Shown one piece after another: positions 35,264 through 64,000 of a stretch of DNA of 64,000 nt. Within the stretch, counting starts at the first letter, position 1, and each line of letters begins with the position of its first letter. The translations under genes were made by a program, and so were the position numbers. A model generated the notes under the pieces. That model made no database searches and was not told the origin of the DNA. It saw nothing but the letters and a program-made list of their open reading frames with translations. The stretch is from Escherichia phage vB_EcoS_Uz-1, in sequence record OP312987.1; one strand, given 5' to 3'.

Positions 35264-36240
35264 GATGGAAAATATCTCTCTCTTTGTTTGCAAATGGTCG
35301 CGACAGGGCAGTATAAACAACGCTTAACCTGCCCCTCCACGACCTTGATAGCACCCTTGCCACCTTTTTCAGCCATGAAGATACGGGCAGATGCCATATC
35401 GTCAAAGTTTTTGGTACTTCTGGCTCCAGGCACATCTACCTTAGAAGCATCAGAGAAGTATTTGAATTGTGGCTCTGTTCGCCACAACTCCTCGTCAGTA
35501 CATTCAGGAATTTCCTCTTCAGGAGCATCCCAGTACTTTTCGATGAGGTGAATCTTCTCTTCCACCCAACGTTCAGTCTTCTCGACAGATAGCAGCGGAA
35601 TATCCTTATGCATAATACGATTAGCAGGATAGTTCGGGTTGCTATTAGCCATGTGTTTCATGAAGTCAGTGAAGATGTAGTTAATACGGATTACATCCTC
35701 CGTAATGATGTCGTTATGAATCCAACGGTACAAGCTGCCTTGCATCTTGTGTTCATCATCACGGGAACCGGCAACCCAGGAATAGGTTGAGGTAGACTTA
35801 AAGTCTTGCAACAGACCTTCCGTTACGATGTCGAACTTACCACCGATAGTCCAACCCTTAACTACCCTGGTTCCACGTTGTTCAATGTAGATTGGGATAA
35901 GGTCTGGGTTAGCATCAAAGTCTGCTTTGGTTGGGTTAATGACTACTGCATCAATGACTCGCTGAGGATAGCCTAGTTTCTTCAATGCAGTCTTATGCCC
36001 CAGCTTCCAGGCTTTCTCAATAGAATCATGCAAGCCAGTACCCATTGATGTGGAGACGAAATCCATAACATCAATGGATTGTTCACTGAGATCTACGCGA
36101 TGCTTCATGACGATTTGCTTAATGGGTTTAAGCAATGTAGTAGCAGACAAGTACTTAGGATTGTCTACATAATCATACTCGTCATGTAATAGCCATACAG
36201 CTAGTGCAAGACTAACGTCGTGTTTGTTGGTAAGTTTCAT
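35260..36240 (-). CDS. PD-(D/E)xK nuclease with C-terminal cysteine cluster (Cas4/RecB-like)
   Basis: GKFDIV ... LQDFK motif plus C-terminal CLYCPVATIC and an upstream Cys, compatible with a Cas4-like Fe-S nuclease. Its first 21 codons are duplicated upstream of the adjacent HNH gene. Confidence 0.5.
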   Translation of the reverse strand: MKLTNKHDVSLALAVWLLHDEYDYVDNPKYLSATTLLKPIKQIVMKHRVDLSEQSIDVMDFVSTSMGTGLHDSIEKAWKLGHKTALKKLGYPQRVIDAVVINPTKADFDANPDLIPIYIEQRGTRVVKGWTIGGKFDIVTEGLLQDFKSTSTYSWVAGSRDDEHKMQGSLYRWIHNDIITEDVIRINYIFTDFMKHMANSNPNYPANRIMHKDIPLLSVEKTERWVEEKIHLIEKYWDAPEEEIPECTDEELWRTEPQFKYFSDASKVDVPGARSTKNFDDMASARIFMAEKGGKGAIKVVEGQVKRCLYCPVATICKQRERYFPS

Positions 36241-36734
36241 AACAGTCCCAATTGCTTATTAGTTTTAGCAAACTCACCATAATGAGTTATAGCAGCTTCA
36301 TCATAGAGAACAGCAGCTTCTCTTGGGTCATCTGTAAAACCTAATGTAATTGGTTTACTGTTAACCCAAATAGTTGCTCTGTATTTACCTAAATTCTTTG
36401 AAAAGGATACCCCCTTAAATCCAGATGTGTTTGTTTTAGATAAAACAGCACTCTGGTTATTCTGCTTGTGGGTCGCTTCTCTGAGGTTATCTATCCAGTT
36501 GTGATGGCGAATATTGTCCTTATGGTCAATCCTATCCGTAGGCCATACACCGTGCACATAGAACCATGCAAGGATATGCCCATAGTACAACACACTATCT
36601 ACACGGAGTTGAACGTAACCACTCTTCATTAGGTAACCAGATACCTTTCCGGTATTCCTACGAGTAAAAATCCCGGAAATAGGGTCATAACTAACAAGCT
36701 GTAAAAGCCTGTCATGGGCAATCCTCTGTTTCAT
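36237..36734 (-). CDS. HNH homing endonuclease with AP2 DNA-binding domain (intact)
   Basis: HNH_3-type core (HGVWPTDRIDHKDNIRHHNWIDNL) and AP2-like C-terminus (SGFKGVSFSKNLGKYRATIW ... AAVLYDEAA). 165 aa, free-standing between replication genes. Confidence 0.7.
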   Translation of the reverse strand: MKQRIAHDRLLQLVSYDPISGIFTRRNTGKVSGYLMKSGYVQLRVDSVLYYGHILAWFYVHGVWPTDRIDHKDNIRHHNWIDNLREATHKQNNQSAVLSKTNTSGFKGVSFSKNLGKYRATIWVNSKPITLGFTDDPREAAVLYDEAAITHYGEFAKTNKQLGLL

Positions 36735-36740
36735 AATTAG

Positions 36741-36803
36741 TTACTCGTCATGCAATAGCCATACAGCCAGGGCCAGTGATACATCATGGTTGTTGGTTAT
36801 CTT
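36741..36803 (-). repeat. recoded duplicate of the first 21 codons of the nuclease gene, ending in a stop, directly upstream of the HNH gene
   Basis: 36741..36803 encodes MKITNNHDVSLALAVWLLHDE then stop; 36177..36239 encodes MKLTNKHDVSLALAVWLLHDE as the true gene start. About 76 percent nucleotide identity but 19 of 21 amino acids identical. Confidence 0.6.
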
Positions 36804-36805
36804 CA

Positions 36806-37282
36806 TTAGTAAGTAATCCTGTATCTGTGAACCCAGTTCCACTTAATTTCACTTAGCTGATTGAAGTTATACGAGTAAATTTCATCTCGTTCATCTTTAT
36901 AAACAATCTCAATGAATGAAAATTCTTTAGTGAAGTGAGGTTTACCATTGTTTGTATGGTGCCAATAACTACCAACGGTATTTACATTCGTAGCAGGATC
37001 CGGAAATAACTCACTAGCTAACTTCTCTTTAGCGAGAATACGATTAGCGTAATGAACCAGCTTCTCAGCATCATACACCGAAGAGTTTCCTGGTTTACCA
37101 TTACCCATACGGGCAGCAGCATTTCGCCATAGAGCCTTAAAGGCACAACCTTCATCGAAGGTCATGCCCAGTGCCTGGATAATATCCTCACACTCTGCTT
37201 GGTATGGCTCTTGCTCTTTCCGTTGGGGGTTCTTAACTGGTACTACATACCAGTTATTCAATCCACCGGAGAGCTTAGTCAT
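36806..37282 (-). CDS. hypothetical protein
   Basis: 158-aa ORF between the DNA polymerase region and the HNH insertion. Confidence 0.45.
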   Translation of the reverse strand: MTKLSGGLNNWYVVPVKNPQRKEQEPYQAECEDIIQALGMTFDEGCAFKALWRNAAARMGNGKPGNSSVYDAEKLVHYANRILAKEKLASELFPDPATNVNTVGSYWHHTNNGKPHFTKEFSFIEIVYKDERDEIYSYNFNQLSEIKWNWVHRYRITY

Positions 37283-37587
37283 TATTCCCCCTTGGGAATC
37301 ATGTTTGCCTGGAACTCTGGTTCAGACATCAGACCCAGGTTGTTAATGGACAGATAAACAATGTCTTTCAAATCAACCGAAGTGTCGAAACGCTGGTCCA
37401 GACTAATTTTAAGAGAGTGATTGGCACGGGCCAAATCTTTATAGGTCACATGAGGCTCGTCAGTGAGCAGCATTGTGTTCATAGTAAGCAGGGAGCCATC
37501 ATCAGCTTTGGGAAGCTGGAAGATTACCTGTGCTGCTACCATCCAATGATATTTTCTGACAACGGTTTCTTTAGTACTTTTAGTCAT
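37282..37587 (-). CDS. hypothetical protein
   Basis: 101-aa ORF directly downstream of the DNA polymerase gene. Confidence 0.4.
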   Translation of the reverse strand: MTKSTKETVVRKYHWMVAAQVIFQLPKADDGSLLTMNTMLLTDEPHVTYKDLARANHSLKISLDQRFDTSVDLKDIVYLSINNLGLMSEPEFQANMIPKGE

Positions 37588-40050
37588 GCGAATGCCTTTT
37601 GAATTATTTGATGAACTTCATCTGGGGTAGCGTGATTTGGAATTTCAATCTCGTTAGCCCACGTTGGATAAAACAAGGATAGTTCCCCACCCAAACCAAC
37701 TTCTGGATGAGCAATATCAGGATGGTCTTGCCAGTTAACGGCTTCAACCAAGTGCTTGTTCGTATACTGTAAGGTATCCATGTTGTCACGGATCATGAAG
37801 TATTGGGCATCATGAATGTGAATACAAGGACGGATATCTAACCTGAACTCACTGGTTCTGACTTTACGCATAAACTCTGAGCCAGCACGGTTATTAAGTA
37901 GACACCAGCTTTGACCTAATGCATTACCAGCAGTTCTGCCTTCAGCTTCTGCTTCATACGGAGTCTTACATGTCCCACGTAATACCTGAGCCAGTAAAGG
38001 AGTACGCACTCTTAAACCAAATGCAGCAGTTACATAACCAGTCTTAGCAGCTTCGTCTAGCTTAGCCTGAACCCACAAATCACTAACTACATAGAGATCG
38101 TGATAACGTTTCTCCGTAGTTTTAGCCTTCTCTTCGGAGAAGCCACAGTTTTCATTAAGCCCATGTAAGTACCACCATAGGTAAGCAGGAAGGTTGGAGC
38201 CTTCGAGTCACTACGTAATGATTTGTACTTATGCTGAATGGAATTAATGGATTCTACTGTGTCTTCTATGTCTGGCATCTGCTCACCAAAATAAGCATAT
38301 GCACGGAGACTGTGACCATCATAGCCATCGGTATATACCTTAAGCTTCTGCGGGTCTTTAGTAGTTAAAGCTGAGATACGGTCTTCAAGGCTTGCAAAGT
38401 CCAGTCCACAAAATATCCAACCTGGTGGTGCTTCGAAGCATTTCTTAATCTTCTTGGCGTATTTGGAACCACTGGGGATGGTCTGTAGATTAGGCTCGGA
38501 CGCTGAGAGACGTCCTGATACTGTGCCTCCAAATTGAGGTTACCGAACAGGTAGTGCCATCCATCTGGTCCAGGTTGTGCATTACGGAAAGCTGGGATGA
38601 ATGAAGTGATGATCTTATCCACCAGCTTATAGTCGATAAGTGCATTGAGCAGTTCCTTAACATCTTCACTCTGCGTATGTGTACGCAGTGCTTTAATAGT
38701 GTCACCGTCAGTAGCAGGTTGCTTGCTCTTAGTAAGACCAAGAACCGGTAAGCCGATGTAGTCAAATAACAATTTCTGTAATTGTGGACCAGAGTTAGGA
38801 TTAAACTCTATGTCACAATCAGCCAACGTTACCTGCTTCTTCTTAAGCTTGGCATTCTTATCGTCTACCCATTCCTGACGAAGCATCAGGGTGAAGTTCT
38901 TCATGAGCTTAGACTCACGAATAGTTTTCAGAGCCTGGTTCCTGTCAGTTTCCATTTCTTCAGCTACTTGGTTAACGGTTTCCATATTCATGGGCATACC
39001 GGTTAACTGCATCTGAATAATGTCTTCGCAGGCTGGTTTAAAGATGTTGTTATAAACATCTAGTTGGTTATCAGCTACCAGGGTATCCCAGTGTTTCTCG
39101 TAGGTGTACCAGGTACACAAACCATCAATAAGGTTGTATCGTAACAGTTGCTCATTAGGAATGAGACGAATGTCTTTAATATCATCCTGAGCATAGTTAC
39201 CAGCATACTCCTGAGCCTGCTCTTTTAGACTAAGGTGATTACCAGCACAACTGTTAGTAGCTAAATAAGTAATTAATTTAGTACAGTCCCAGTTACGCAG
39301 CATGATGTCCATGCCATGCAGTAAGCCTCCAGTATCAATCAGGTTATCCATGAATAACTGATAAATAAGTATGTACACATCATAACTAATGTTGTGATAC
39401 ATCTGCCGTTGGGTGTACTTAATGAAGAACTCACGGAGAAGATTTCGAACAATATCATTACGATTGATTCTCCCATAAGGTGCTTCAGTAGCTCCCCTAA
39501 TTGGCTCGTAATCCACATTAAAGGCTATGCCCTGTGTCTTACTCCAACAGAACGTAATTGTTCCTATACCTGCGTTATAGTGCTTTAAACCGAATGCCTC
39601 GATGTCTATAGCCAGAGGCTTATTCATCTCAAGCAACTGGTCTAGCCAGGCTTTAATCTTTTCTGGAGTATCTGGATAGGCTTCAAACTCAATGATTCCC
39701 TGACCTGGTTCAGCATACTGCCCACGTATGTGGTTTAGTAATGCATCCATACCCTGAGCAATTTTGGCTCTCACTACAGGTGGGTCATAAAAGACCTGTC
39801 TGTAACTAGGCGTATAGATAACTTTCTGTTTACCCCATACTGAATCACAAACATAGCCGAGATTAGCCTCTGCTTTAGCCTCTTTAGTCAGTATTTTGAA
39901 GTAATCAGAATCGGTGCAGATAATGTACTGGGTCTCTGCATCATCCAGTACTTGCTGCAATTCCTGCTTTATGAACTCCTTAATCTCTCTTGCTGGGGTC
40001 TTCTTCTTGCCCGGAGCAGAGTGAAGTTCAATAAAGATGAAGTCTTCCAT
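37584..40050 (-). CDS. DNA polymerase, family A, with 3'-5' exonuclease domain; at least two apparent frameshifts
   Basis: Fragments 38365..40050, 38087..38278 and 37584..38078. Exo motif LAIDIEAF; FNPNSGPQLQKLLF; motif A (GLDFASLEDRISA) readable only in a shifted frame after a break near 38531-38546; motif B (KAPTFLLTYGG); motif C (IHDAQYF). Second break at an A-run (ATGAAAACTGTGG) near 38143-38155. Confidence 0.7.
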
Positions 40051-40169
40051 GCTTAGGTCATAAGGCAGCAGGTAGGTTTAATCATCTCCTCCCTTCGGAT
40101 TTGATGACCGAGGATAGCAATAGGATACTTACCAGTATCCTGAGAGGTGATGTAACGCATAGCTTTACC

Positions 40170-42897: not shown

Positions 42898-44946
42898 TTA
42901 CTTAACGTGCTTTGACAGCTTAGTAGCCAATTTGCTCTCTTCTTCAGTCAGACCCATTGCAGCTGAAGACTTCTTAGCTGCACGCTTATAGTCTTGTAGG
43001 GCATGACCTTTCTGATAGTCAGAGATAGGACTATCTTCAGGATGTACGCAGATTATCATGGCATGTTTACCAGTAATGGCAGGCTTATATTTAGTGGGTA
43101 GAACGGTCTTAGCTTGCTTCACTGGTTTTGGTTTGCCGATGGGTTTAGCTGTGTAAGTTGTACGTACATCAGCAATCTTAGCCACTACATCGGAACCAAC
43201 TCCTAAAGCAGCCCATGGCTTACGGGCCTTGCCTCGCATTTCCACAAGCAAATCAGCAGCAGCTAATTTATCTTCTGGGGTTGTTGCATTGAGGAACTCT
43301 TTGACCAGTTCCTGGATTTGTTCTTTCACAGTAGGAGCCTTCTTAATAACGGGTTTAAGGTCAGTAGCCTTCACTGGTTCAGAAGCTACAGTTTCATTCA
43401 GTGACTCTTCCATATTCAGTGCTTCTTTATTAGCAACTGTACGGAATTGTTCTACAGAACCAGATGTGAGATTAGTATATTTGAGGTTAGTACCACGATG
43501 TCCACCAACCATAACAAGTGTGGTAGGTGAACTATGGTTCCCAACGATGGCATCATTAAGCAACTTCTTACCTACTTCTGTCTTAGACAGATAGATACCG
43601 TTGTTAACGTTGCAACGTTCCTCTTCCGGCAGTTCAGCAATAATGTGATATGCAGATACACGCATCTTATTAGTGCTGTACTGAGGAACAGCAAATACAT
43701 CTTCTGGTGCTACTTTACCAAGGATAGTTACGTTACCACCGAAGCTACGAATGTAGCTCATGGATGCTACATGCAGACCATTAGAACAGTCCTGGCGACG
43801 GTCAGGGTCTACCAGGTCTTCGCGTACCTGCACTTTACATCCTACCCATTGACGAATGTTGCCTGAGTGACAATCAACGAATACACGTTTACCATTCTCT
43901 AGACTTCTATACTTCAGACGTTTCAGGAACAGGATTGAACCATCATCAGCAATAGGTAGCTCAGCAGTTTCCATGAACTTCATCAGGTCTTCAACTGAGT
44001 GTAGACGGTCTTTAATTACTGGAGCCAGACGCTCAAGGAACTTAGTAAAGCCCTTGTAGTCTTTCAGTTGGGCAGACTGACGCAAGTGACGTTGCAGGTT
44101 CTCAACTCCAGGGATAACCCCATCGTTGGTAACAGCAACAACCACTTCATCTTCCTTCACATCAGTGTGGAAGTTAGCGTCATCAGTACTAATAGCACCC
44201 AATGCAGCCAGTTTCTCAGAAGCAGCAGCCAGCTTATCCTGATTCGTAACTTTAACCTCTTCTACATAAGGCAGTGGAGTTTCATCGCGACTGGTAAATA
44301 CAATGTGTACTCCTTTGATATGTTTGGCTTGTTTAGCAAACTCACTCATTTCATCATCGGATACTGCACGAATTGCAATAGGCCATTCTTGCTTAAGAAT
44401 GCTGTCAGTATGCTTATAACTCCAACACAGTACATCATTAATAAAACGAACCAGTGCAGGATGGTTATGGTCCTTGTCCCAACCAGTAACCCACATCAGA
44501 TTGTCACGTTTATCGTAACAACCGTCTGCTACTGTTACTTCTGGTTCATTAGCCTGGACAGCCAGGAAGGTATCCATAGCTCTAGACACCAGCGTCTTAG
44601 TGGGATTTCCCAGCTTAATATCTGAGACGATTCGGGCTGGTTGAGTACTTGTACCATCTTCGAAGAACTCTTTGAGTTTAGCCTTAGCTACCTTGAAGAA
44701 ACGGACGAATCCGTTAGTGTTCTTCTCTGCTTCCAGATATTCAGTACGCAGGTTTACTTCTGGTGCAATGTTTACTTCTATCTGGTCTTTGGTAGTTCCC
44801 AGACCTTTGGTTTGTGCTTCAGATACAATACGAGCAACCCGTGGGTCGCTCTGAGGATATACAATCGTGGAGCCATCAGGCTTCCACAGTGTAAGGTTAC
44901 GACTGTCAACTGCCAGTGCGATGATAGAAATCAGTTCGATTTTCAT
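42898..44946 (-). CDS. large hypothetical protein immediately downstream of rIIA-like gene (rIIB-like by position only)
   Basis: 682-aa ORF following the rIIA-like gene on the same strand. No motif recognised; the rIIB label is positional. Confidence 0.3.
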   Translation of the reverse strand: MKIELISIIALAVDSRNLTLWKPDGSTIVYPQSDPRVARIVSEAQTKGLGTTKDQIEVNIAPEVNLRTEYLEAEKNTNGFVRFFKVAKAKLKEFFEDGTSTQPARIVSDIKLGNPTKTLVSRAMDTFLAVQANEPEVTVADGCYDKRDNLMWVTGWDKDHNHPALVRFINDVLCWSYKHTDSILKQEWPIAIRAVSDDEMSEFAKQAKHIKGVHIVFTSRDETPLPYVEEVKVTNQDKLAAASEKLAALGAISTDDANFHTDVKEDEVVVAVTNDGVIPGVENLQRHLRQSAQLKDYKGFTKFLERLAPVIKDRLHSVEDLMKFMETAELPIADDGSILFLKRLKYRSLENGKRVFVDCHSGNIRQWVGCKVQVREDLVDPDRRQDCSNGLHVASMSYIRSFGGNVTILGKVAPEDVFAVPQYSTNKMRVSAYHIIAELPEEERCNVNNGIYLSKTEVGKKLLNDAIVGNHSSPTTLVMVGGHRGTNLKYTNLTSGSVEQFRTVANKEALNMEESLNETVASEPVKATDLKPVIKKAPTVKEQIQELVKEFLNATTPEDKLAAADLLVEMRGKARKPWAALGVGSDVVAKIADVRTTYTAKPIGKPKPVKQAKTVLPTKYKPAITGKHAMIICVHPEDSPISDYQKGHALQDYKRAAKKSSAAMGLTEEESKLATKLSKHVK

Positions 44947-44950
44947 CAGA

Positions 44951-47516
44951 TTAGTTACCTTTCAGTTTATTTAGACGATTACGGTAGAGGGACTTAAACC
45001 CAGGAATATCCTCTGGATTCTTCTTAAGGTGTTTGACCAAACTACCTAAGTCCAGCGTCTGTAGGATGTCATTTTTATTCCAGCTATAACTGAATAATTC
45101 TTTGTAATCATTAAGTATTTTAAAGTACTTATGATTACGCGGATTAGTCATTATTGCATATGGCTCTAAGTCATCCACTGACTTAATACAACCCATTTCA
45201 ACAAGTTTTTCTTTGTTGTCGTGTGGTCGATTCCGTAGAAAGTCATATGCCCATTCATATTCTGGTTTAAAAATCAGATTCTGTAATGGTTTGAAGGTTA
45301 GACCAGTATGTCTAGGATTTCCCAGTATTCCCTGTCATCCAGTCCTACGTATTCCAGAATACCAATACGGTGTTCAGTAACATATTTCTTGAAGCCTTTA
45401 CTGGTAATAACTGGCATCAGCTCCATAAAGCGAACATCATCAATGTGGATAGCACCTCTCCGTTTGGCCTTGTTAGCTTCGATTTGATTACGGCAGACAA
45501 CAGTCTCTGCTCTCATCTCATCAGATAACTCATACCATTTCCACATGGTTCCAATTCGAGCAGTTACTGGGCTACCTGAACCAACCTGATTGGCTAGTAC
45601 GTAGTACTTAGGTTGCTCTACTTCAACGAAACCAGACTTATCATGGCGACTTGGGTCTGCAAATTCCTTCTGAATATAAGGCTTTGGTTCCCAATCCCCA
45701 TTTTTATTCCGTATTTGGGTAGCACCAAGAACTGCATTCAATGAAATCAGAGAATTAGTTTTACCTCCTGCCTTGGTTTTATTGGCAGCGATTGTCTTAG
45801 ACCGTTTCTCAGCAGCTATCTTAGCTTTCTCTCTACGGAAGTTAGTTGGTTTGTCCCACTCATTATATTGAGTAAGGTCGATTACCCGATAACCCATAGC
45901 AGTGAACTTAGCCACAGCTTCTTCTGCTGCACCCTTCTTAGGTCCAACGACGTGAACAAAAGCTGTACGCTCCAGGTCACCTCGATCGTACTCAGGGAAG
46001 TACGAGAAAGAGTCTGCACAGTCAGACAAACGTCGGGTAACTACAACGTTTTTGGTAGTGAATATGCCAATACTTTGGTGGGAGTTATTGTATATCCTAA
46101 AGTAGTCAGTAAGTTTACCTTTTACCAAGTCAACACGGTTACCTTGATTCATTATGTAACCAGACCACTTAATACCAGAGGTTTTCAAAGCAGCCAGCTG
46201 AGGTAAGTGCAGATGGCGATATACTAATTCCGAGAATGGGGAGTATGTACTTTCTTCACGAGTATCCTTAAGAGCACGCATAGCCTTACCATACAGTTTC
46301 TTAAGACCTGCGTATTCAGGACGAGCTAATAATGCCTTATTGGATAAATTACGCCAGTGCTTGATGTAATGCTTACGTTGCTTAGCCCACAAACTAGAGG
46401 ACATATAGCGTTGAACAGTTCTGTCTGTAACAGCACCCAGGAATGATGGATACTCCCAGAAGCGAGTAGAGGATTTAGAAGCATATTCTTCAACCTGCTT
46501 AATGGCTTCAGGAATCTTAGCCTTAATCTCTTTCTCCATACGGTCTACTAAATCTACACATAGAGTAGTAATACCATCGTCGGTTAACTTCTGGTTAGAC
46601 AGCGTTTCTCGACTAGGAGCAATAGCTAAAGTGTCTGGTGCAGCCTGAACTACTAGATTAGAAGCACCAATAATATTCATGAAGTTGAGGATAAGGCCTA
46701 CAGCTTCTTCACTAGCTGGGCTGGATACAATTGGTACATTACATTACCGTAGCGAACGTATATGTTACTGCTACCCATATAGCCTTGATACCATCTATCA
46801 GACATATCATATGAACCAGGTTCAAATGGCATGCCTAGTGTATCCAGTAGAGTGTAGTCGCCTTGTTGAATACTATTACTCTCGTCTGTTCTAATGAGTT
46901 TGGGAGTACTTAGCTCAGCTTTAATTTCACCGTTAAACACAATTGATTTGATGTAATGAATAAAGGTATTTAAATCATGTTTGCCTAACTGGAATTTAAC
47001 TTCCAGACCAGATTCCTCAGTAGGAATACCAGTAATAATAGGAACAATACCAGGCTTACCATCATTCTCAATTGCAGCCTTAGCTACGTTATATACAGAC
47101 ATCTTCCCTTGGTTCCATGATGTAACCTGGAAGCTATCTGTATAAGCGAATGGGGATTTACATCCCAGACCAAAGCCACCAGTAACACTACTGTTGGACT
47201 TCTTGGTAGATGCACCATAGACACCATAAATGGAGCCAATGAGTTCATCTTGGATACCGTTACCGAAGTCACGGAAGGTAATAAAGTTGTCAGTATCAAT
47301 GGTAATACGGATAGGAGTATCAGTCTTACCTGCTTCAATATGGGCATCCCAACTGTTACAGATAGTTTCACGGACTACTGCCAGAGTAGGGTTGTTATAC
47401 AAGGAAGTACTTAATACATGAAAGAATGCCGGGTCATCAGAGATGCCAAAGGCGATTGCTTCTTTGCCACCCAGTGTCGCTGAAGTGGCTGATTGATTGG
47501 TATCTGCAACTAACAT
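44951..47516 (-). CDS. rIIA-like protein with GHKL-type ATPase N-terminal domain; two apparent frameshifts
   Basis: Fragments 46698..47516, 45298..46680 and 44951..45196, about 855 aa combined. GHKL-like motifs ETICNSWDA, RDFGNGI, GGFGLG. Adjacent frames are open and protein-like across both junctions; the second is at an A3 run (TGGGAAATCC, coding strand) near 45315-45324. Confidence 0.55.
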
Positions 47517-53136: not shown

Positions 53137-54188
53137 TTATCCGTGAATGTAGCGGGAGATGTTAGCAGCAGCCTTACGCCATTCAGGGGTAGCCTGAAGT
53201 TCTGGCAATGCTCTGCCTACTGTACGAAAGTACAGAATCTTATGAGTGAACGTTTTAAAGCGTTCAATGTACTGAAGAACATCAGCGAAGTTTTCCTCAG
53301 TAGTTTTGTTAGCCAGATGGTTAACGGTAGCCCAACACAGGTTATTATCTTCCGGTAGTGTACAGCCCATAGGGTCTTTGACTACCTTATCAATCGTAAT
53401 GATACGATTGTACACCTGTGTAAATTGAACAAACTCTGTAGCCTTACCAGCAGTAACGTGTCCTGCATAGTAGATAGAATCTTCATCAGGCAGAGCACCT
53501 TCAGGACGGTTCTTGAGGTCTTTGTTAACAAAGTCCCAGGTACGAGGGCAACAGAACGTTTTGTTCTTATGTGCTGGGTCGAAGTCATGCAGATAACCGG
53601 GGTTAGCATGTAAGAATGCAACCAGACGTTCATCCATTGTTGTGGAATCATTACGTCTTCAACAAAGATGTCGAAGTTAAGTTCCATTTCGAAGTGGACA
53701 ACACGGGACTGCATTGCAGTACCCAGTGGGTTAACGATGGCACGGTCAGTAGCTTTGTTACCAGCACAGATAATCATCACATTAGGATGAAGTTTTTTCT
53801 GACCAGTCATACGGTCTAGAATCAGTTTATATGCAGCAGCTATTACTTCTTTGCGAGCAGATGGGAACTCATCAAGGAATAAGAGCCAGCCATTATATCC
53901 TTCCGGTATTTTATCCCCTTCAATTGGGAATAAGTCAGCGAATGGAATAAACTCTGCACGGTCACCATTACGGAATGGTAAGCCAGAAAGGTCTTCCGGG
54001 GCAGAAGTTGACAGACGATGGTCTATCAACTTCATACCAAATTCTTCTGCAATAGAACGAATGATTGCAGATTTACCCATGCCAGGTGATGAAGTCAGGA
54101 ACGGTACGTTACCTGCTTTCAAAGCACGGATAATAAAGTTACGAGCTTGACGTGAATTACATACGGTCAAGGAGTCAATGCTTGCCAT
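53137..54188 (-). CDS. MoxR-like AAA+ ATPase; N- and C-terminal parts in different frames
   Basis: Walker A SSPGMGKS, Walker B LLFLDEF, sensor-1-like ICAGN in 54188..~53650; a protein-like C-terminal ORF 53137..53637 in another frame, while the N-terminal frame continues as low-complexity garbage. Could instead be two genes. Confidence 0.5.
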
Positions 54189-54222
54189 TTACTTACTCTC
54201 CTAAAGCTAATGGAATTACTGA

Positions 54223-54552
54223 TTAAGATTTAGTGCAGGGATAGGCCTTGTGTACTGAGTACACAACAATTTGAGATGTATTCTTCATCTTGAGGATTGC
54301 AGAGTCATAAATAACCACTTTGGCAATCTTAGGCAGAATGACCGAATATTTAATACCTTCTGGAACACAGTTATCTGTGCTCTCGATGTAAGAGATCATA
54401 CTGCCCATGAAGAAACCTTGTCCGAACGCATCACGAGTGTCATCCAGGTAAGCCTGAGCACCTTCCAGAATTGGTTCTGGTTCAATTGCTTGTGCACTTG
54501 GGGCTAAAGCTATCAGTGCAGCTACTGCAATACCTTTAAGTAAAGTTTTCAT
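54223..54552 (-). CDS. small secreted protein with Sec-type signal peptide
   Basis: N-terminus MKTLLKGIAVAALIALAPSAQA with an AxA cleavage-like site; 109 aa. Confidence 0.5.
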   Translation of the reverse strand: MKTLLKGIAVAALIALAPSAQAIEPEPILEGAQAYLDDTRDAFGQGFFMGSMISYIESTDNCVPEGIKYSVILPKIAKVVIYDSAILKMKNTSQIVVYSVHKAYPCTKS

Positions 54553-54738
54553 TTAGTTACCTTTCATTTCATTGAGTTTAAGTACACCGATAGGGGTTAA
54601 TGACCACCCAAGACCAGCATTGAACTGAACTAAGCCCAGCTTCTTAAGAGACTGTGCGGTTTTGTTATTACGGTTGCTGGTGGCAGAACCACCTTGAACC
54701 ATACGAAGGAAGATTGCTTGGGACTGAGTTAATTTCAA
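54553..54738 (-). CDS. hypothetical protein
   Basis: 61-aa ORF, start overlapping the upstream stop. Confidence 0.35.
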   Translation of the reverse strand: MKLTQSQAIFLRMVQGGSATSNRNNKTAQSLKKLGLVQFNAGLGWSLTPIGVLKLNEMKGN

Positions 54739-54944
54739 AGGTAATATCCTTCCAGGTTTATTGGTGTTACAAATGTATTTGCTGATAGATAGAATGATTT
54801 ACCAGTTTCTACAGCAACAGCAGCAGGTTTGCCTTCAGGTAGGTGAATCTTTAAACACACTGTCTGGTTATAAATAAAACCATTAGCAGGCTCTACATCA
54901 CCGAAAGTTACTTCATTGTTCTCAGAACGATTTGTTACTTTCAC
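54735..54944 (-). CDS. hypothetical protein
   Basis: 69-aa ORF, ATGA-coupled. Confidence 0.35.
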   Translation of the reverse strand: MKVTNRSENNEVTFGDVEPANGFIYNQTVCLKIHLPEGKPAAVAVETGKSFYLSANTFVTPINLEGYYL

Positions 54945-55201
54945 TCATCTTCTCCTTCATCCGGTAGCGGTGATAAATCTACACCTAAATGCTTCAGGCG
55001 TTTCTCTAAGTCATCTACCTTATTTTGATAAAATGACAGTAGCTCAGGTAGTATTCTTGTACGAGCTTGCGGTCCTAAATCCTTATCGTAAAAGGATACT
55101 TTCACCATATGTGGAGCTTTCTTCAAACTAGCTAATTGCTGTCGGTTGTCGTTGTATTCTTCATACAATTTCTCAACCAAATGTAGATTGTGGATATTCA
55201 T
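54941..55201 (-). CDS. hypothetical protein
   Basis: 86-aa ORF, ATGA-coupled. Confidence 0.4.
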   Translation of the reverse strand: MNIHNLHLVEKLYEEYNDNRQQLASLKKAPHMVKVSFYDKDLGPQARTRILPELLSFYQNKVDDLEKRLKHLGVDLSPLPDEGEDE

Positions 55202-55386
55202 TTCTTCTCCGGTACGAACTGCATTACACAGCTTTGATTACGAGGGATATTAAGTTCACATTCATGCTTGAGGGTTTGTGTTACAGAGTTTGGAGTAGAA
55301 CCAAAATAGGTATTGGAGATAGCTACGAATCCTGCACCTATTAAACCACCTAGTAAGAATGAGAAGAATGCAATCTCTTTATACAT
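55198..55386 (-). CDS. small membrane protein
   Basis: 62-aa ORF with an N-terminal TM helix. Confidence 0.4.
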   Translation of the reverse strand: MYKEIAFFSFLLGGLIGAGFVAISNTYFGSTPNSVTQTLKHECELNIPRNQSCVMQFVPEKK

Positions 55387-55446
55387 TTCCTGGCTCCAGA
55401 TGTAGAAAACCCAGTCAATGCTGGGGTTTATCTATCAGTTTATACT

Positions 55447-55707
55447 TTATAGACCATGTGGTCGGCATAGACTACCCGAACCAAACGAACGGTGTCCAAG
55501 TCGGCCCAGGATTAGATTGCTTACTTCAGCAGCAGCACGACTGAATGCTTTAAAGTCAAAAACTACGATACCAAAGAGTGGGGCTGCAATAGCAGCTACC
55601 ATGATTGGAGTCAGGTCAACCAGTGACATACCCAAGATTAAGTGAGCAGCGTAGGCAATAATACCCATTCCAACACCACAACCATATCCAATAGCAATTT
55701 TACGCAT
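55447..55707 (-). CDS. small membrane protein
   Basis: 86-aa ORF with two G/A-rich hydrophobic helices. Confidence 0.4.
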   Translation of the reverse strand: MRKIAIGYGCGVGMGIIAYAAHLILGMSLVDLTPIMVAAIAAPLFGIVVFDFKAFSRAAAEVSNLILGRLGHRSFGSGSLCRPHGL

Positions 55708-55844
55708 AGTTACCTTCTTAGTTAGTAAGTTGATTTACATATTCATATAACAGACAAACAATAGTCAAAAAAGACTCCCTTCAATAGGGAGGTCAAACTT
55801 GAGGGTTTCATTTCAGGGTTTATAACCCCAAACAAAGAATACCC

Positions 55845-63533: not shown

Positions 63534-63857
63534 TTAGTCTTTAGTCAGGATGTCAATTACTTTTGAATATTCTGCGTTATAGATACGAGCGTTTTCTGAA
63601 TCTTTGCAGAATTCCTCAATACTTTTCTTACGCAGAGTCTCGTTCATAGCTGTTTCTTCAGCTAATTTGTTTACGAATGTATGCATTTCTAACTTAGTAC
63701 GGATGGCTTGTTTCTCTGCCATAGTAGATACATATGAGTTAAGCATACCTACTGCTTTAGTAGCTGTGCCAAATGTATCTGCAACAGTAGTAGCAGCTGA
63801 GTTAACAGTACCAAGTAAAGTTCCTGCGGTCATACGTACAGTAGCTTGAGTAGTCAT
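63534..63857 (-). CDS. hypothetical early protein
   Basis: 107-aa ORF directly downstream of a hairpin promoter. Confidence 0.4.
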   Translation of the reverse strand: MTTQATVRMTAGTLLGTVNSAATTVADTFGTATKAVGMLNSYVSTMAEKQAIRTKLEMHTFVNKLAEETAMNETLRKKSIEEFCKDSENARIYNAEYSKVIDILTKD

Positions 63858-63900
63858 GATGATAGCTCCAATAGTTGATGATAGGACGACATGTCCATAA

Positions 63901-63913
63901 CATGCGGAGCATG
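63901..63913 (-). promoter_or_regulatory. candidate virion-RNAP hairpin promoter (GGA loop)
   Basis: Plus-strand CCATAA-CATGC-GGA-GCATG, 44 nt upstream of the start at 63857. Confidence 0.6.
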
Positions 63914-64000
63914 TGTAACGTGTAAGGTGGGGTAGGGTAGTGGCTACAGGGTCAACATACCGGGGGGGGTAGTTGAGTGTAAGGGTGTAGCCCCTGCCAC

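What the first reader, a model, noticed from the sequence alone, without database searches (positions are those of the whole stretch)
37584..40050. Family-A DNA polymerase split into three frames by two single-base deletions
The conserved polymerase motifs continue across frame boundaries. After HYLFGNLNL the annotated frame turns to garbage while the -1 frame reads QFGGTVSGRLSASEPNLQTIP and motif A. After motif B (KAPTFLLTYGGTYMGLMK) the next frame continues NCGFSEEKAKTTEKRYHDLY and the GYVT region through motif C. The second break is in an A4 run that would need to be A5. An essential replication gene is unlikely to be truly inactivated, so assembly indels are the leading explanation.
Basis: seen in the sequence. 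Interest (0 to 1): 0.5.

Follow-up and report, generated by a model that had tools for sequence, protein, structure and literature searches.

The report
Sequencing-error frameshifts in phage DNA polymerase
The broken DNA polymerase gene is an ordinary N4-like phage polymerase with three missing bases that come from the error-laden public genome of phage Bp4, whose coordinates this sequence follows exactly, so it is almost certainly a data artefact and not biology.

Summary
On the minus strand, polymerase homology runs on across frame changes at about 38,532 and 38,150. A third 1-nt deletion at 40,077-40,079 was missed; it cuts off the first 28 codons, so the gene spans 37,584-40,160. Restoring three bases gives one 859-aa family-A polymerase (an N4 gp39 orthologue), 98.5% identical to the intact polymerase of phage VTCCBPA_322. 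dN/dS is 0.02-0.05 in every segment.

The same three deletions occur in only one other sequence, the GenBank/RefSeq record of phage Bp4. The whole 64-kb window aligns to Bp4 positions 8,584-72,583 with 3,811 substitutions and no gap. A natural relative of similar identity needs more than 200 gap openings. Around site 2 the window is nearly identical to VTCCBPA_322 and differs from Bp4 at 30 of 121 bases, yet it carries Bp4's gap.

So the window looks like a related phage threaded onto the Bp4 scaffold, and its indel state comes from Bp4. That scaffold lacks 13 bases at 12 places in six conserved genes. All 12 are deletions, and 10 shorten runs of identical bases. No slippery site, stimulatory RNA structure or conservation supports recoding.

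Verdict: sequencing or assembly artefact, low interest.

The parts
37584..40160 (-). Complete family-A DNA polymerase gene (orthologue of N4 gp39). It is 2577 nt here and 2580 nt in intact relatives. Restoring 3 bases gives one 859-aa ORF.
   Evidence: tblastn of the VTCCBPA_322 polymerase covers residues 1-859 over 40160..37587. The corrected translation has a single terminal stop and 98.5% aa identity to VTCCBPA_322. Pfam DNA_pol_A scores 132.4 bits.
40080..40160 (-). Segment 0: true start codon and codons 1-27 (MRYITSQDTGKYPIAILGHQIRREEMI). As written, this frame stops after 35 codons.
40077..40079 (-). Deletion site 1: AAA here and in Bp4, AAAA in VTCCBPA_322 and in 6 IMG/VR contigs.
38534..40076 (-). 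Segment 1: 3'-5' exonuclease region (motifs AIDIEAF, HNISYD, YNLIDG) and the N-terminal part of the polymerase domain. The mechanical ORF 38365..40050 (561 aa) lies in this frame.
38531..38533 (-). Deletion site 2: AAT-TTGG here and in Bp4, AATCTTGG or AATCTGGG in relatives (Leu codon).
38153..38530 (-). Segment 2: TVSGRLS / PNLQTIP, motif A (DFASLEDR) and motif B (RSDSKAPTFLLTYGG). There is no ATG, GTG or TTG in this frame upstream of motif A, so this segment cannot be made by separate initiation.
38149..38152 (-). Deletion site 3: AAAA here and in Bp4, AAAAA in VTCCBPA_322, 2 IMG/VR contigs and 4 metagenome contigs.
37584..38148 (-). Segment 3: C-terminal part of the polymerase domain with motif C (IHIHDAQY), ending at the stop codon. 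The mechanical ORF 37584..38078 (164 aa) lies in this frame.

Best explanation
The gene is a normal, functional N4-like (Gamaleyavirus) family-A DNA polymerase. Its three frame breaks are base-calling or assembly deletions, not features of the phage DNA. They come from the public genome record of Escherichia phage Bp4 (KJ135004.2 / NC_024142.2), which lacks single bases, mostly in short homopolymer runs, in many genes. The window follows the Bp4 coordinate system base for base. It carries natural substitutions from a different Gamaleyavirus but no indel of its own, and it reverts to 100% Bp4 sequence where relatives lack homologous DNA. That pattern is what a reference-guided consensus gives when substitutions are called, insertions are dropped and uncovered stretches are filled from the reference. 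The match to Bp4 coordinates is shown directly; how the consensus was built is my inference. In the real phage the polymerase is expected to be a single 859-aa protein.
For: 1. The window aligns to Bp4 8584-72583 as one HSP of 64,000 nt with 3,811 mismatches and 0 gaps. The window against VTCCBPA_322, at similar identity, gives about 20 HSPs and more than 200 gap openings.

2. All three polymerase deletions are shared with Bp4, which annotates the polymerase as two partial CDS of the same 561 and 164 aa.

3. Within 60 nt either side of site 2, the window differs from Bp4 at 30 positions and from VTCCBPA_322 at 1, yet it has Bp4's gap. The same holds at the gp51-like 2-nt gap (21 against 5 mismatches). 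Natural recombination cannot import the flanks without the indel.

4. Thirteen runs of 250-2960 nt that are 100% identical to Bp4 lie where VTCCBPA_322 homology breaks (tail spike, HNH gene, accessory ORFs).

5. No independent sequence has the short alleles. The top phage hits span +3 nt over the gene. All full-length hits, including N4, span +2 nt over sites 2-3. The IMG/VR and metagenome contigs all carry the long alleles.

6. The same scaffold lacks 13 bases at 12 places in six conserved genes: gp53-like, gp51-like, primase, polymerase, rIIA and the gp24-like ATPase. All are deletions, and 10 of 12 shorten a run of at least 3 identical bases. Bp4 annotates these genes as 'similar to part of' the N4 proteins.

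7. dN/dS is 0.02-0.05 in each polymerase segment in the restored frame and above 2 in the other frames, for window-Bp4, window-VTCC and Bp4-VTCC.

8. The restored protein is 98.5% identical to an intact polymerase and passes Pfam DNA_pol_A. The largest fragment does not pass.
Against: No reads are available, so the homopolymer lengths in the real DNA are not directly verified. Site 2 is not a homopolymer in any relative I examined, so it is not a textbook run under-call. It can be explained if Bp4 truly has TTG-GGG-GGA (G6 read as G5), but that is untested. Three of the 12 gap loci fall in a gene covering about 4% of the window, a mild enrichment (Poisson p about 0.01, assessed post hoc). I could not identify the window's source record or read the Bp4 genome paper, so the sequencing platform and the consensus method are inferred.
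Confidence: 0.93

Rival explanations
1. The deletions are real mutations: the phage, or a defective variant in the sequenced stock, has an inactivated polymerase pseudogene.
For: The sequence as given has the three breaks, and Bp4's depositors kept them in a revised record version.
Against: N4 gp39 is the replicative polymerase, and Bp4 is a plaque-forming lytic phage (title of Zhang et al. 2016, cited in PMC7650795). The same record would also need frameshifted primase, two virion proteins, rIIA and an ATPase. dN/dS is 0.02-0.05 downstream of every break, across dS of 0.3-0.5 between the two carriers. The window's indel state is not independent of Bp4.
Confidence: 0.03
2. The breaks are real and are decoded by three programmed -1 recoding events (ribosomal frameshifting or transcriptional slippage) to give the full-length polymerase.
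For: All three shifts are -1, the restored protein is intact, and it is under purifying selection.
Against: No X XXY YYZ slippery heptamer exists at any site: the contexts are G ATT AAA CCT, C AAT TTG and G AAA ACT (read directly). Runs of 3-4 bases are far too short for known transcriptional slippage (established knowledge). The 96-99 nt windows starting at each break do not fold unusually well (z = -0.25, -1.84, -0.57), and the one marginal hairpin is not kept in Bp4. More than 100 relatives, including N4, have the unbroken gene. Three serial events would multiply already low efficiencies. The other five broken genes would need the same special pleading.
Confidence: 0.01
3. The polymerase is truly split into separately translated fragments that assemble, as in relatives whose polymerase gene is interrupted by a homing endonuclease gene.
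For: Several N4-like phages (PhAPEC7, Moonfish, ST4, PD205, SPSP, Pollock) are annotated with two polymerase CDS flanking an HNH endonuclease gene.
Against: Nothing is inserted here; the segments abut with a 1-nt offset. The motif A/B segment has no start codon upstream of motif A. The breaks fall inside conserved structural elements, not at a domain boundary.
Confidence: 0.01

Closest known systems
Escherichia phage Bp4 DNA polymerase fragments (EpBp4_0046 and EpBp4_0045; KJ135004.2 / NC_024142.2)
   Same: It has the identical three 1-nt deletions and identical ORF lengths (561 and 164 aa) at a constant coordinate offset of 8583. An HNH gene lies downstream in the same place, and the primase, rIIA, gp51-like, gp53-like and gp24-like genes are broken in the same way.
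   Different: About 8% nucleotide substitutions across the gene (6% over the window), nearly all synonymous. The window's bases are often those of other Gamaleyaviruses.
Intact Gamaleyavirus DNA polymerase I, for example Escherichia phage VTCCBPA_322 XFC51941.1 (859 aa); prototype N4 gp39
   Same: 94.5% nucleotide identity, and 98.5% amino-acid identity after restoring 3 bases. It has the same neighbours (helicase, gp38-like gene upstream; gp40-like and gp41-like genes downstream) and the same exonuclease and polymerase motifs.
   Different: The relatives have one uninterrupted ORF of 2580 nt; the window lacks 3 bases.
Homopolymer under-calls of flow-based or early long-read sequencing, and reference-guided consensus artefacts
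   Same: Deletions only, mostly in runs of 3-5 identical bases, spread over many genes and absent from independent assemblies. There are zero indels relative to one database record, and 100% reference sequence where relatives lack homology.
   Different: Two of the 12 gap loci (polymerase site 2 and one gp51-like site) are not runs in the relative used for comparison. The platform and pipeline are not known to me.

Membership tests
Family-A DNA polymerase (Pfam PF00476, N4 gp39-like) | Profile match above the curated threshold | tested here: met
   The restored 859-aa protein scores DNA_pol_A 132.4 bits against a cut-off of 34.3, over residues 432-786. The 561-aa fragment as written scores only 24.6 bits, below the cut-off, and the 164-aa fragment has no hit.
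Family-A DNA polymerase (Pfam PF00476, N4 gp39-like) | Catalytic motifs A (D...E), B (R..K...F..YG) and C (HD), plus 3'-5' exonuclease motifs I-III | tested here: met
   Read directly from the restored translation: CGLDFASLEDR, RSDSKAPTFLLTYGG, IHIHDAQY; AIDIEAF, HNISYD, YNLIDG. Assignment of these strings to the motifs rests on my knowledge of Pol I and T7 polymerases.
Family-A DNA polymerase (Pfam PF00476, N4 gp39-like) | Orthology and synteny with N4 gp39 | tested here: met
   The region matches the annotated N4 DNA polymerase at 75.7% nucleotide identity (H44). The Bp4 annotation reads 'similar to part of YP_950517.1 gp39'. The gene is flanked by gp37 helicase and gp38 upstream and gp40/gp41 homologues downstream.
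Programmed -1 ribosomal frameshift | Slippery heptamer X XXY YYZ at the shift site | tested here: not met
   The contexts G ATT AAA CCT, C AAT TTG GAG and G AAA ACT GTG do not fit the pattern.
Programmed -1 ribosomal frameshift | Stimulatory RNA structure downstream of the site | tested here: not met
   z-scores are -0.25, -1.84 and -0.57 against shuffles. The only marginal hairpin is destroyed by synonymous changes in Bp4.
Programmed -1 ribosomal frameshift | The frameshift is conserved among relatives | tested here: not met
   Only the Bp4 records share it. VTCCBPA_322, the top 30 phage records, N4, the IMG/VR contigs and the metagenome contigs all have the in-frame alleles.
Homing-endonuclease-split polymerase (as annotated in PhAPEC7, Moonfish, Pollock) | An endonuclease gene or intron inserted between two polymerase halves, each with its own start | tested here: not met
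   There is no insertion: the gene is 2577 nt against 2580 nt. The middle segment has no start codon before motif A.
Sequencing or assembly indel artefact | Indels absent from independent assemblies, biased to deletions in homopolymers, spread over many genes, with coding constraint intact across the breaks | tested here: met
Sequencing or assembly indel artefact | Raw reads or resequencing disagree with the assembled run lengths | not testable with these tools
   No reads are available.

The most novel reading that the evidence does not exclude
The short alleles are physically present in the phage DNA, and a full-length polymerase is still made by three non-canonical -1 recoding events. Alternatively, the phage replicates without its own intact polymerase.
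Probability: 0.02. Interest if true: 0.7.

Novelty: not a real feature. Interest (0 to 1): 0.06.

Why it matters
It matters only for data hygiene. The Bp4 RefSeq/GenBank record, and this sequence built on its coordinates, carry at least 13 missing bases that break six conserved genes. Gene callers therefore report fragmentary polymerase, primase, rIIA and virion proteins, and such fragments can be mistaken for split genes, pseudogenes or recoding. The analysis also gives a simple signature of a reference-threaded consensus. That signature is zero indels against one database record, near-identity to other phages in the flanks of each gap, and 100% reference sequence in variable regions.

Tried and rejected
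- Exact-sequence look-ups of the 561-aa fragment and of the intact helicase, meant to identify the source record, found nothing.
- The Bp4 genome paper (PMC8193434) is not held, so the sequencing platform is unknown. Two papers that mention Bp4 say nothing about frameshifts.
- I considered that the window might be an earlier version of the Bp4 record. I rejected this because the helicase differs at 13 residues, while its protein accession still carries version 1 in the current record (AHN83397.1).
- I considered natural recombination between Bp4-like and VTCC-like phages as the source of the mosaic. I rejected this because VTCC-like flanks carry Bp4-specific gaps and 64 kb is gapless.
- I considered random artificial mutation of Bp4. 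I rejected this because the window is closer to VTCCBPA_322 than Bp4 is (93.9% against 92.5% over the 25-kb structural block), and the substitutions are overwhelmingly synonymous.
- A scan of IMG/VR for the A4 allele alone found nothing. A scan of bacterial genome contigs found neither allele.
- Some fetched loci (L002, L004, L007) were not visible to the Python sandbox and had to be refetched.

Full report
**What is in the sequence**

The gene lies on the minus strand. Mechanical ORF calling gives three pieces: 38365..40050 (561 aa), 38087..38278 (63 aa) and 37584..38078 (164 aa).

- Frame 0 ends its sense at ...GWHYLFGNLNL.
- The -1 frame continues QFGGTVSGRLSASEPNLQTIP, motif A (CGLDFASLEDR) and motif B (RSDSKAPTFLLTYGGTYMGLMK).
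- A further -1 frame continues NCGFSEEKAKTTEKRYHDLY, GYVT and motif C (IHIHDAQY) to the stop at 37584.

Going from frame 0 to frame 2 to frame 1 means each break equals the loss of one base.

**What the window is**

Megablast places the window in Gamaleyavirus, the G7C/N4-like phages of the Schitoviridae. The best match is Escherichia phage VTCCBPA_322 at 94.5%. Its polymerase is one 859-aa CDS that starts 110 nt upstream of the window's ATG at 40050.

**A third break**

Nearly all top hits span 2804 nt for the 2801-nt query. Alignment shows three 1-nt gaps in the window, not two:
- Site 1, 40077-40079: AAA here, AAAA in relatives.
- Site 2, 38531-38533: AAT-TTGG here, AATCTTGG in relatives.
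- Site 3, 38149-38152: AAAA here, AAAAA in relatives.

The true gene is therefore 37584-40160. The first 27 codons (MRYITSQDTGKYPIAILGHQIRREEMI) are in a fourth piece that stops after 35 codons.

tblastn of the VTCCBPA_322 polymerase hits the window in contiguous query segments: 1-28, 29-544, 543-682 and 653-859. These lie in frames -3, -2, -1 and -3, with E-values from 5.5e-12 to 0.

**The restored gene is a normal, constrained polymerase**

Putting one base back at each site gives an 859-aa ORF with a single terminal stop. It is 98.5% identical to the VTCCBPA_322 polymerase.

It scores 132.4 bits on Pfam DNA_pol_A (cut-off 34.3). The 561-aa fragment scores 24.6 bits and the 164-aa fragment scores nothing. 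The exonuclease motifs and polymerase motifs A-C are all present.

Nei-Gojobori dN/dS in the polymerase frame is 0.02-0.05 in each of the three large segments. This holds for window-VTCC, window-Bp4 and Bp4-VTCC, at dS of 0.2-0.6. The two other frames give values above 2. So every segment has been translated in the single restored frame throughout the divergence of these sequences.

The middle segment has no ATG, GTG or TTG before motif A. Separate initiation therefore cannot supply it.

**Who else has the breaks**

Only phage Bp4 (KJ135004.2 = NC_024142.2) does. It annotates two partial polymerase CDS with exactly the window's lengths, and it has all three gaps.

Every other sequence examined has the long alleles:
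- The other top phage records span +3 nt over the gene. ST4 and Moonfish carry a larger insertion in the gene, so their spans are not informative.
- All full-length hits, including KP8 and N4 itself, span +2 nt across sites 2-3.
- Two IMG/VR contigs carry the long allele at site 3 and six at site 1.
- Four metagenome contigs carry the long allele at site 3. Those that also match the site 1 or site 2 pattern have the long form there too.
- A direct scan of IMG/VR for the A4 allele found nothing.

**Why sharing with Bp4 is not independent confirmation**

The polymerase ORFs sit at a constant offset of 8583 from Bp4, and 8583 + 64000 equals Bp4's length of 72583.

The whole window aligns to Bp4 8584-72583 as one HSP with 3,811 mismatches and no gap. 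The same window against VTCCBPA_322, at similar identity, breaks into about 20 HSPs with more than 200 gap openings.

The substitutions are natural ones:
- The window is closer to VTCCBPA_322 than Bp4 is (93.9% against 92.5% over 25 kb).
- They are almost all synonymous.
- Transitions outnumber transversions 2:1.

Thirteen stretches of 250-2960 nt are 100% identical to Bp4. They fall where VTCCBPA_322 homology breaks off: the tail spike, the HNH gene at 36237-36734 and small accessory ORFs.

The most telling evidence is local. Within 60 nt either side of site 2, the window differs from Bp4 at 30 positions and from VTCCBPA_322 at one, yet it carries Bp4's gap. At the 2-nt gap in the gp51-like gene the counts are 21 and 5. 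Recombination in nature cannot import both flanks and leave the indel behind. Threading another phage's bases onto Bp4 coordinates can.

I infer a reference-guided consensus in which substitutions are called, insertions are dropped and uncovered stretches are filled from the reference. The method itself is not shown.

The window is not an older version of the Bp4 record. Its helicase differs at 13 residues, while that protein's accession still carries version 1 in the current Bp4 record (AHN83397.1).

**The scaffold is error-laden**

Against VTCCBPA_322, the window and Bp4 lack 13 bases at 12 places in six conserved genes:

| Gene | Missing bases |
|---|---|
| gp53-like virion protein | 1 |
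| gp51-like virion protein | 1 + 2 + 1 + 1 |
| Primase | 1 |
| DNA polymerase | 3 |
| rIIA | 2 |
| gp24-like ATPase | 1 |

All are deletions. Ten of the twelve shorten a run of three or more identical bases. The only other indel in these genes is an in-frame 3-nt difference in a divergent tail of rIIA.

Bp4's own annotation splits these genes into pieces 'similar to part of' N4 proteins. A plaque-forming lytic phage cannot have all of these genes broken. This is the pattern of homopolymer under-calling.

Site 2 is not a run in any relative. In Bp4 it could be G6 read as G5 if the Leu codon is TTG. In the window it is exactly the VTCC-like sequence minus its C, as threading predicts. This part is inference.

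**Recoding**

- None of the three sites has an X XXY YYZ heptamer (read directly).
- Runs of 3-4 bases are too short for known transcriptional slippage (established knowledge).
- The 96-99 nt windows starting at each break do not fold unusually well (z = -0.25, -1.84, -0.57).
- The one marginal hairpin is abolished by synonymous changes in Bp4.
- The shifts are not conserved in any relative.

**Verdict**

The gene itself is an ordinary, already known N4-type replicative polymerase. The frameshifts are not a biological feature, so interest is low. Direct proof needs reads or resequencing, which I could not obtain.

Noticed in passing
window 1-64000 (= Bp4 KJ135004.2 8584-72583): The whole window follows Bp4's coordinate system: 64,000 nt, 3,811 substitutions, 0 gaps. 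Thirteen stretches of 250-2960 nt are 100% identical to Bp4 (for example 1-2960, 36191-37027, 44684-47096, 53920-55796), and they fall where a natural relative lacks homology. It looks like a reference-threaded chimeric consensus, so any indel-dependent or variable-region feature in this window should be distrusted.
   Followed up: yes
window 12296; 14972, 15066, 15170, 15423; 35025; 45305, 46735; 53636: Ten further missing bases at nine places break the gp53-like and gp51-like virion protein genes, the primase, rIIA and the gp24-like ATPase. All are shared with Bp4, and most shorten short C, G or A runs.
   Followed up: yes
window 36237-36734 (minus strand): A 165-aa HNH_3 (Pfam PF13392) homing-endonuclease gene sits between the gp41-like and gp42-like genes. 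It is absent from VTCCBPA_322 and lies inside a stretch 100% identical to Bp4, so it may belong to Bp4 and not to the phage that supplied the substitutions.
   Followed up: partly
relatives: H12 ST4, H20 Moonfish, H38 PD205, H39 PhAPEC7, H45 SPSP, H85 Pollock; L011 12203-13298: Several N4-like phages have a polymerase gene interrupted by an insertion of about 0.7-1.2 kb, annotated in several of them as an HNH endonuclease. Where I could locate it, it lies between the positions of sites 2 and 3, near motifs A and B, giving two annotated polymerase CDS. This would be a real split, or an intron, that is unrelated to the frameshifts here.
   Followed up: no
window 63590-64000: The last 411 nt match Bp4 positions 1-411 (93.4%) as well as Bp4's own end. 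This suggests the roughly 400-bp direct terminal repeat typical of N4-like phages, although the Bp4 record is described as circularly permuted.
   Followed up: no
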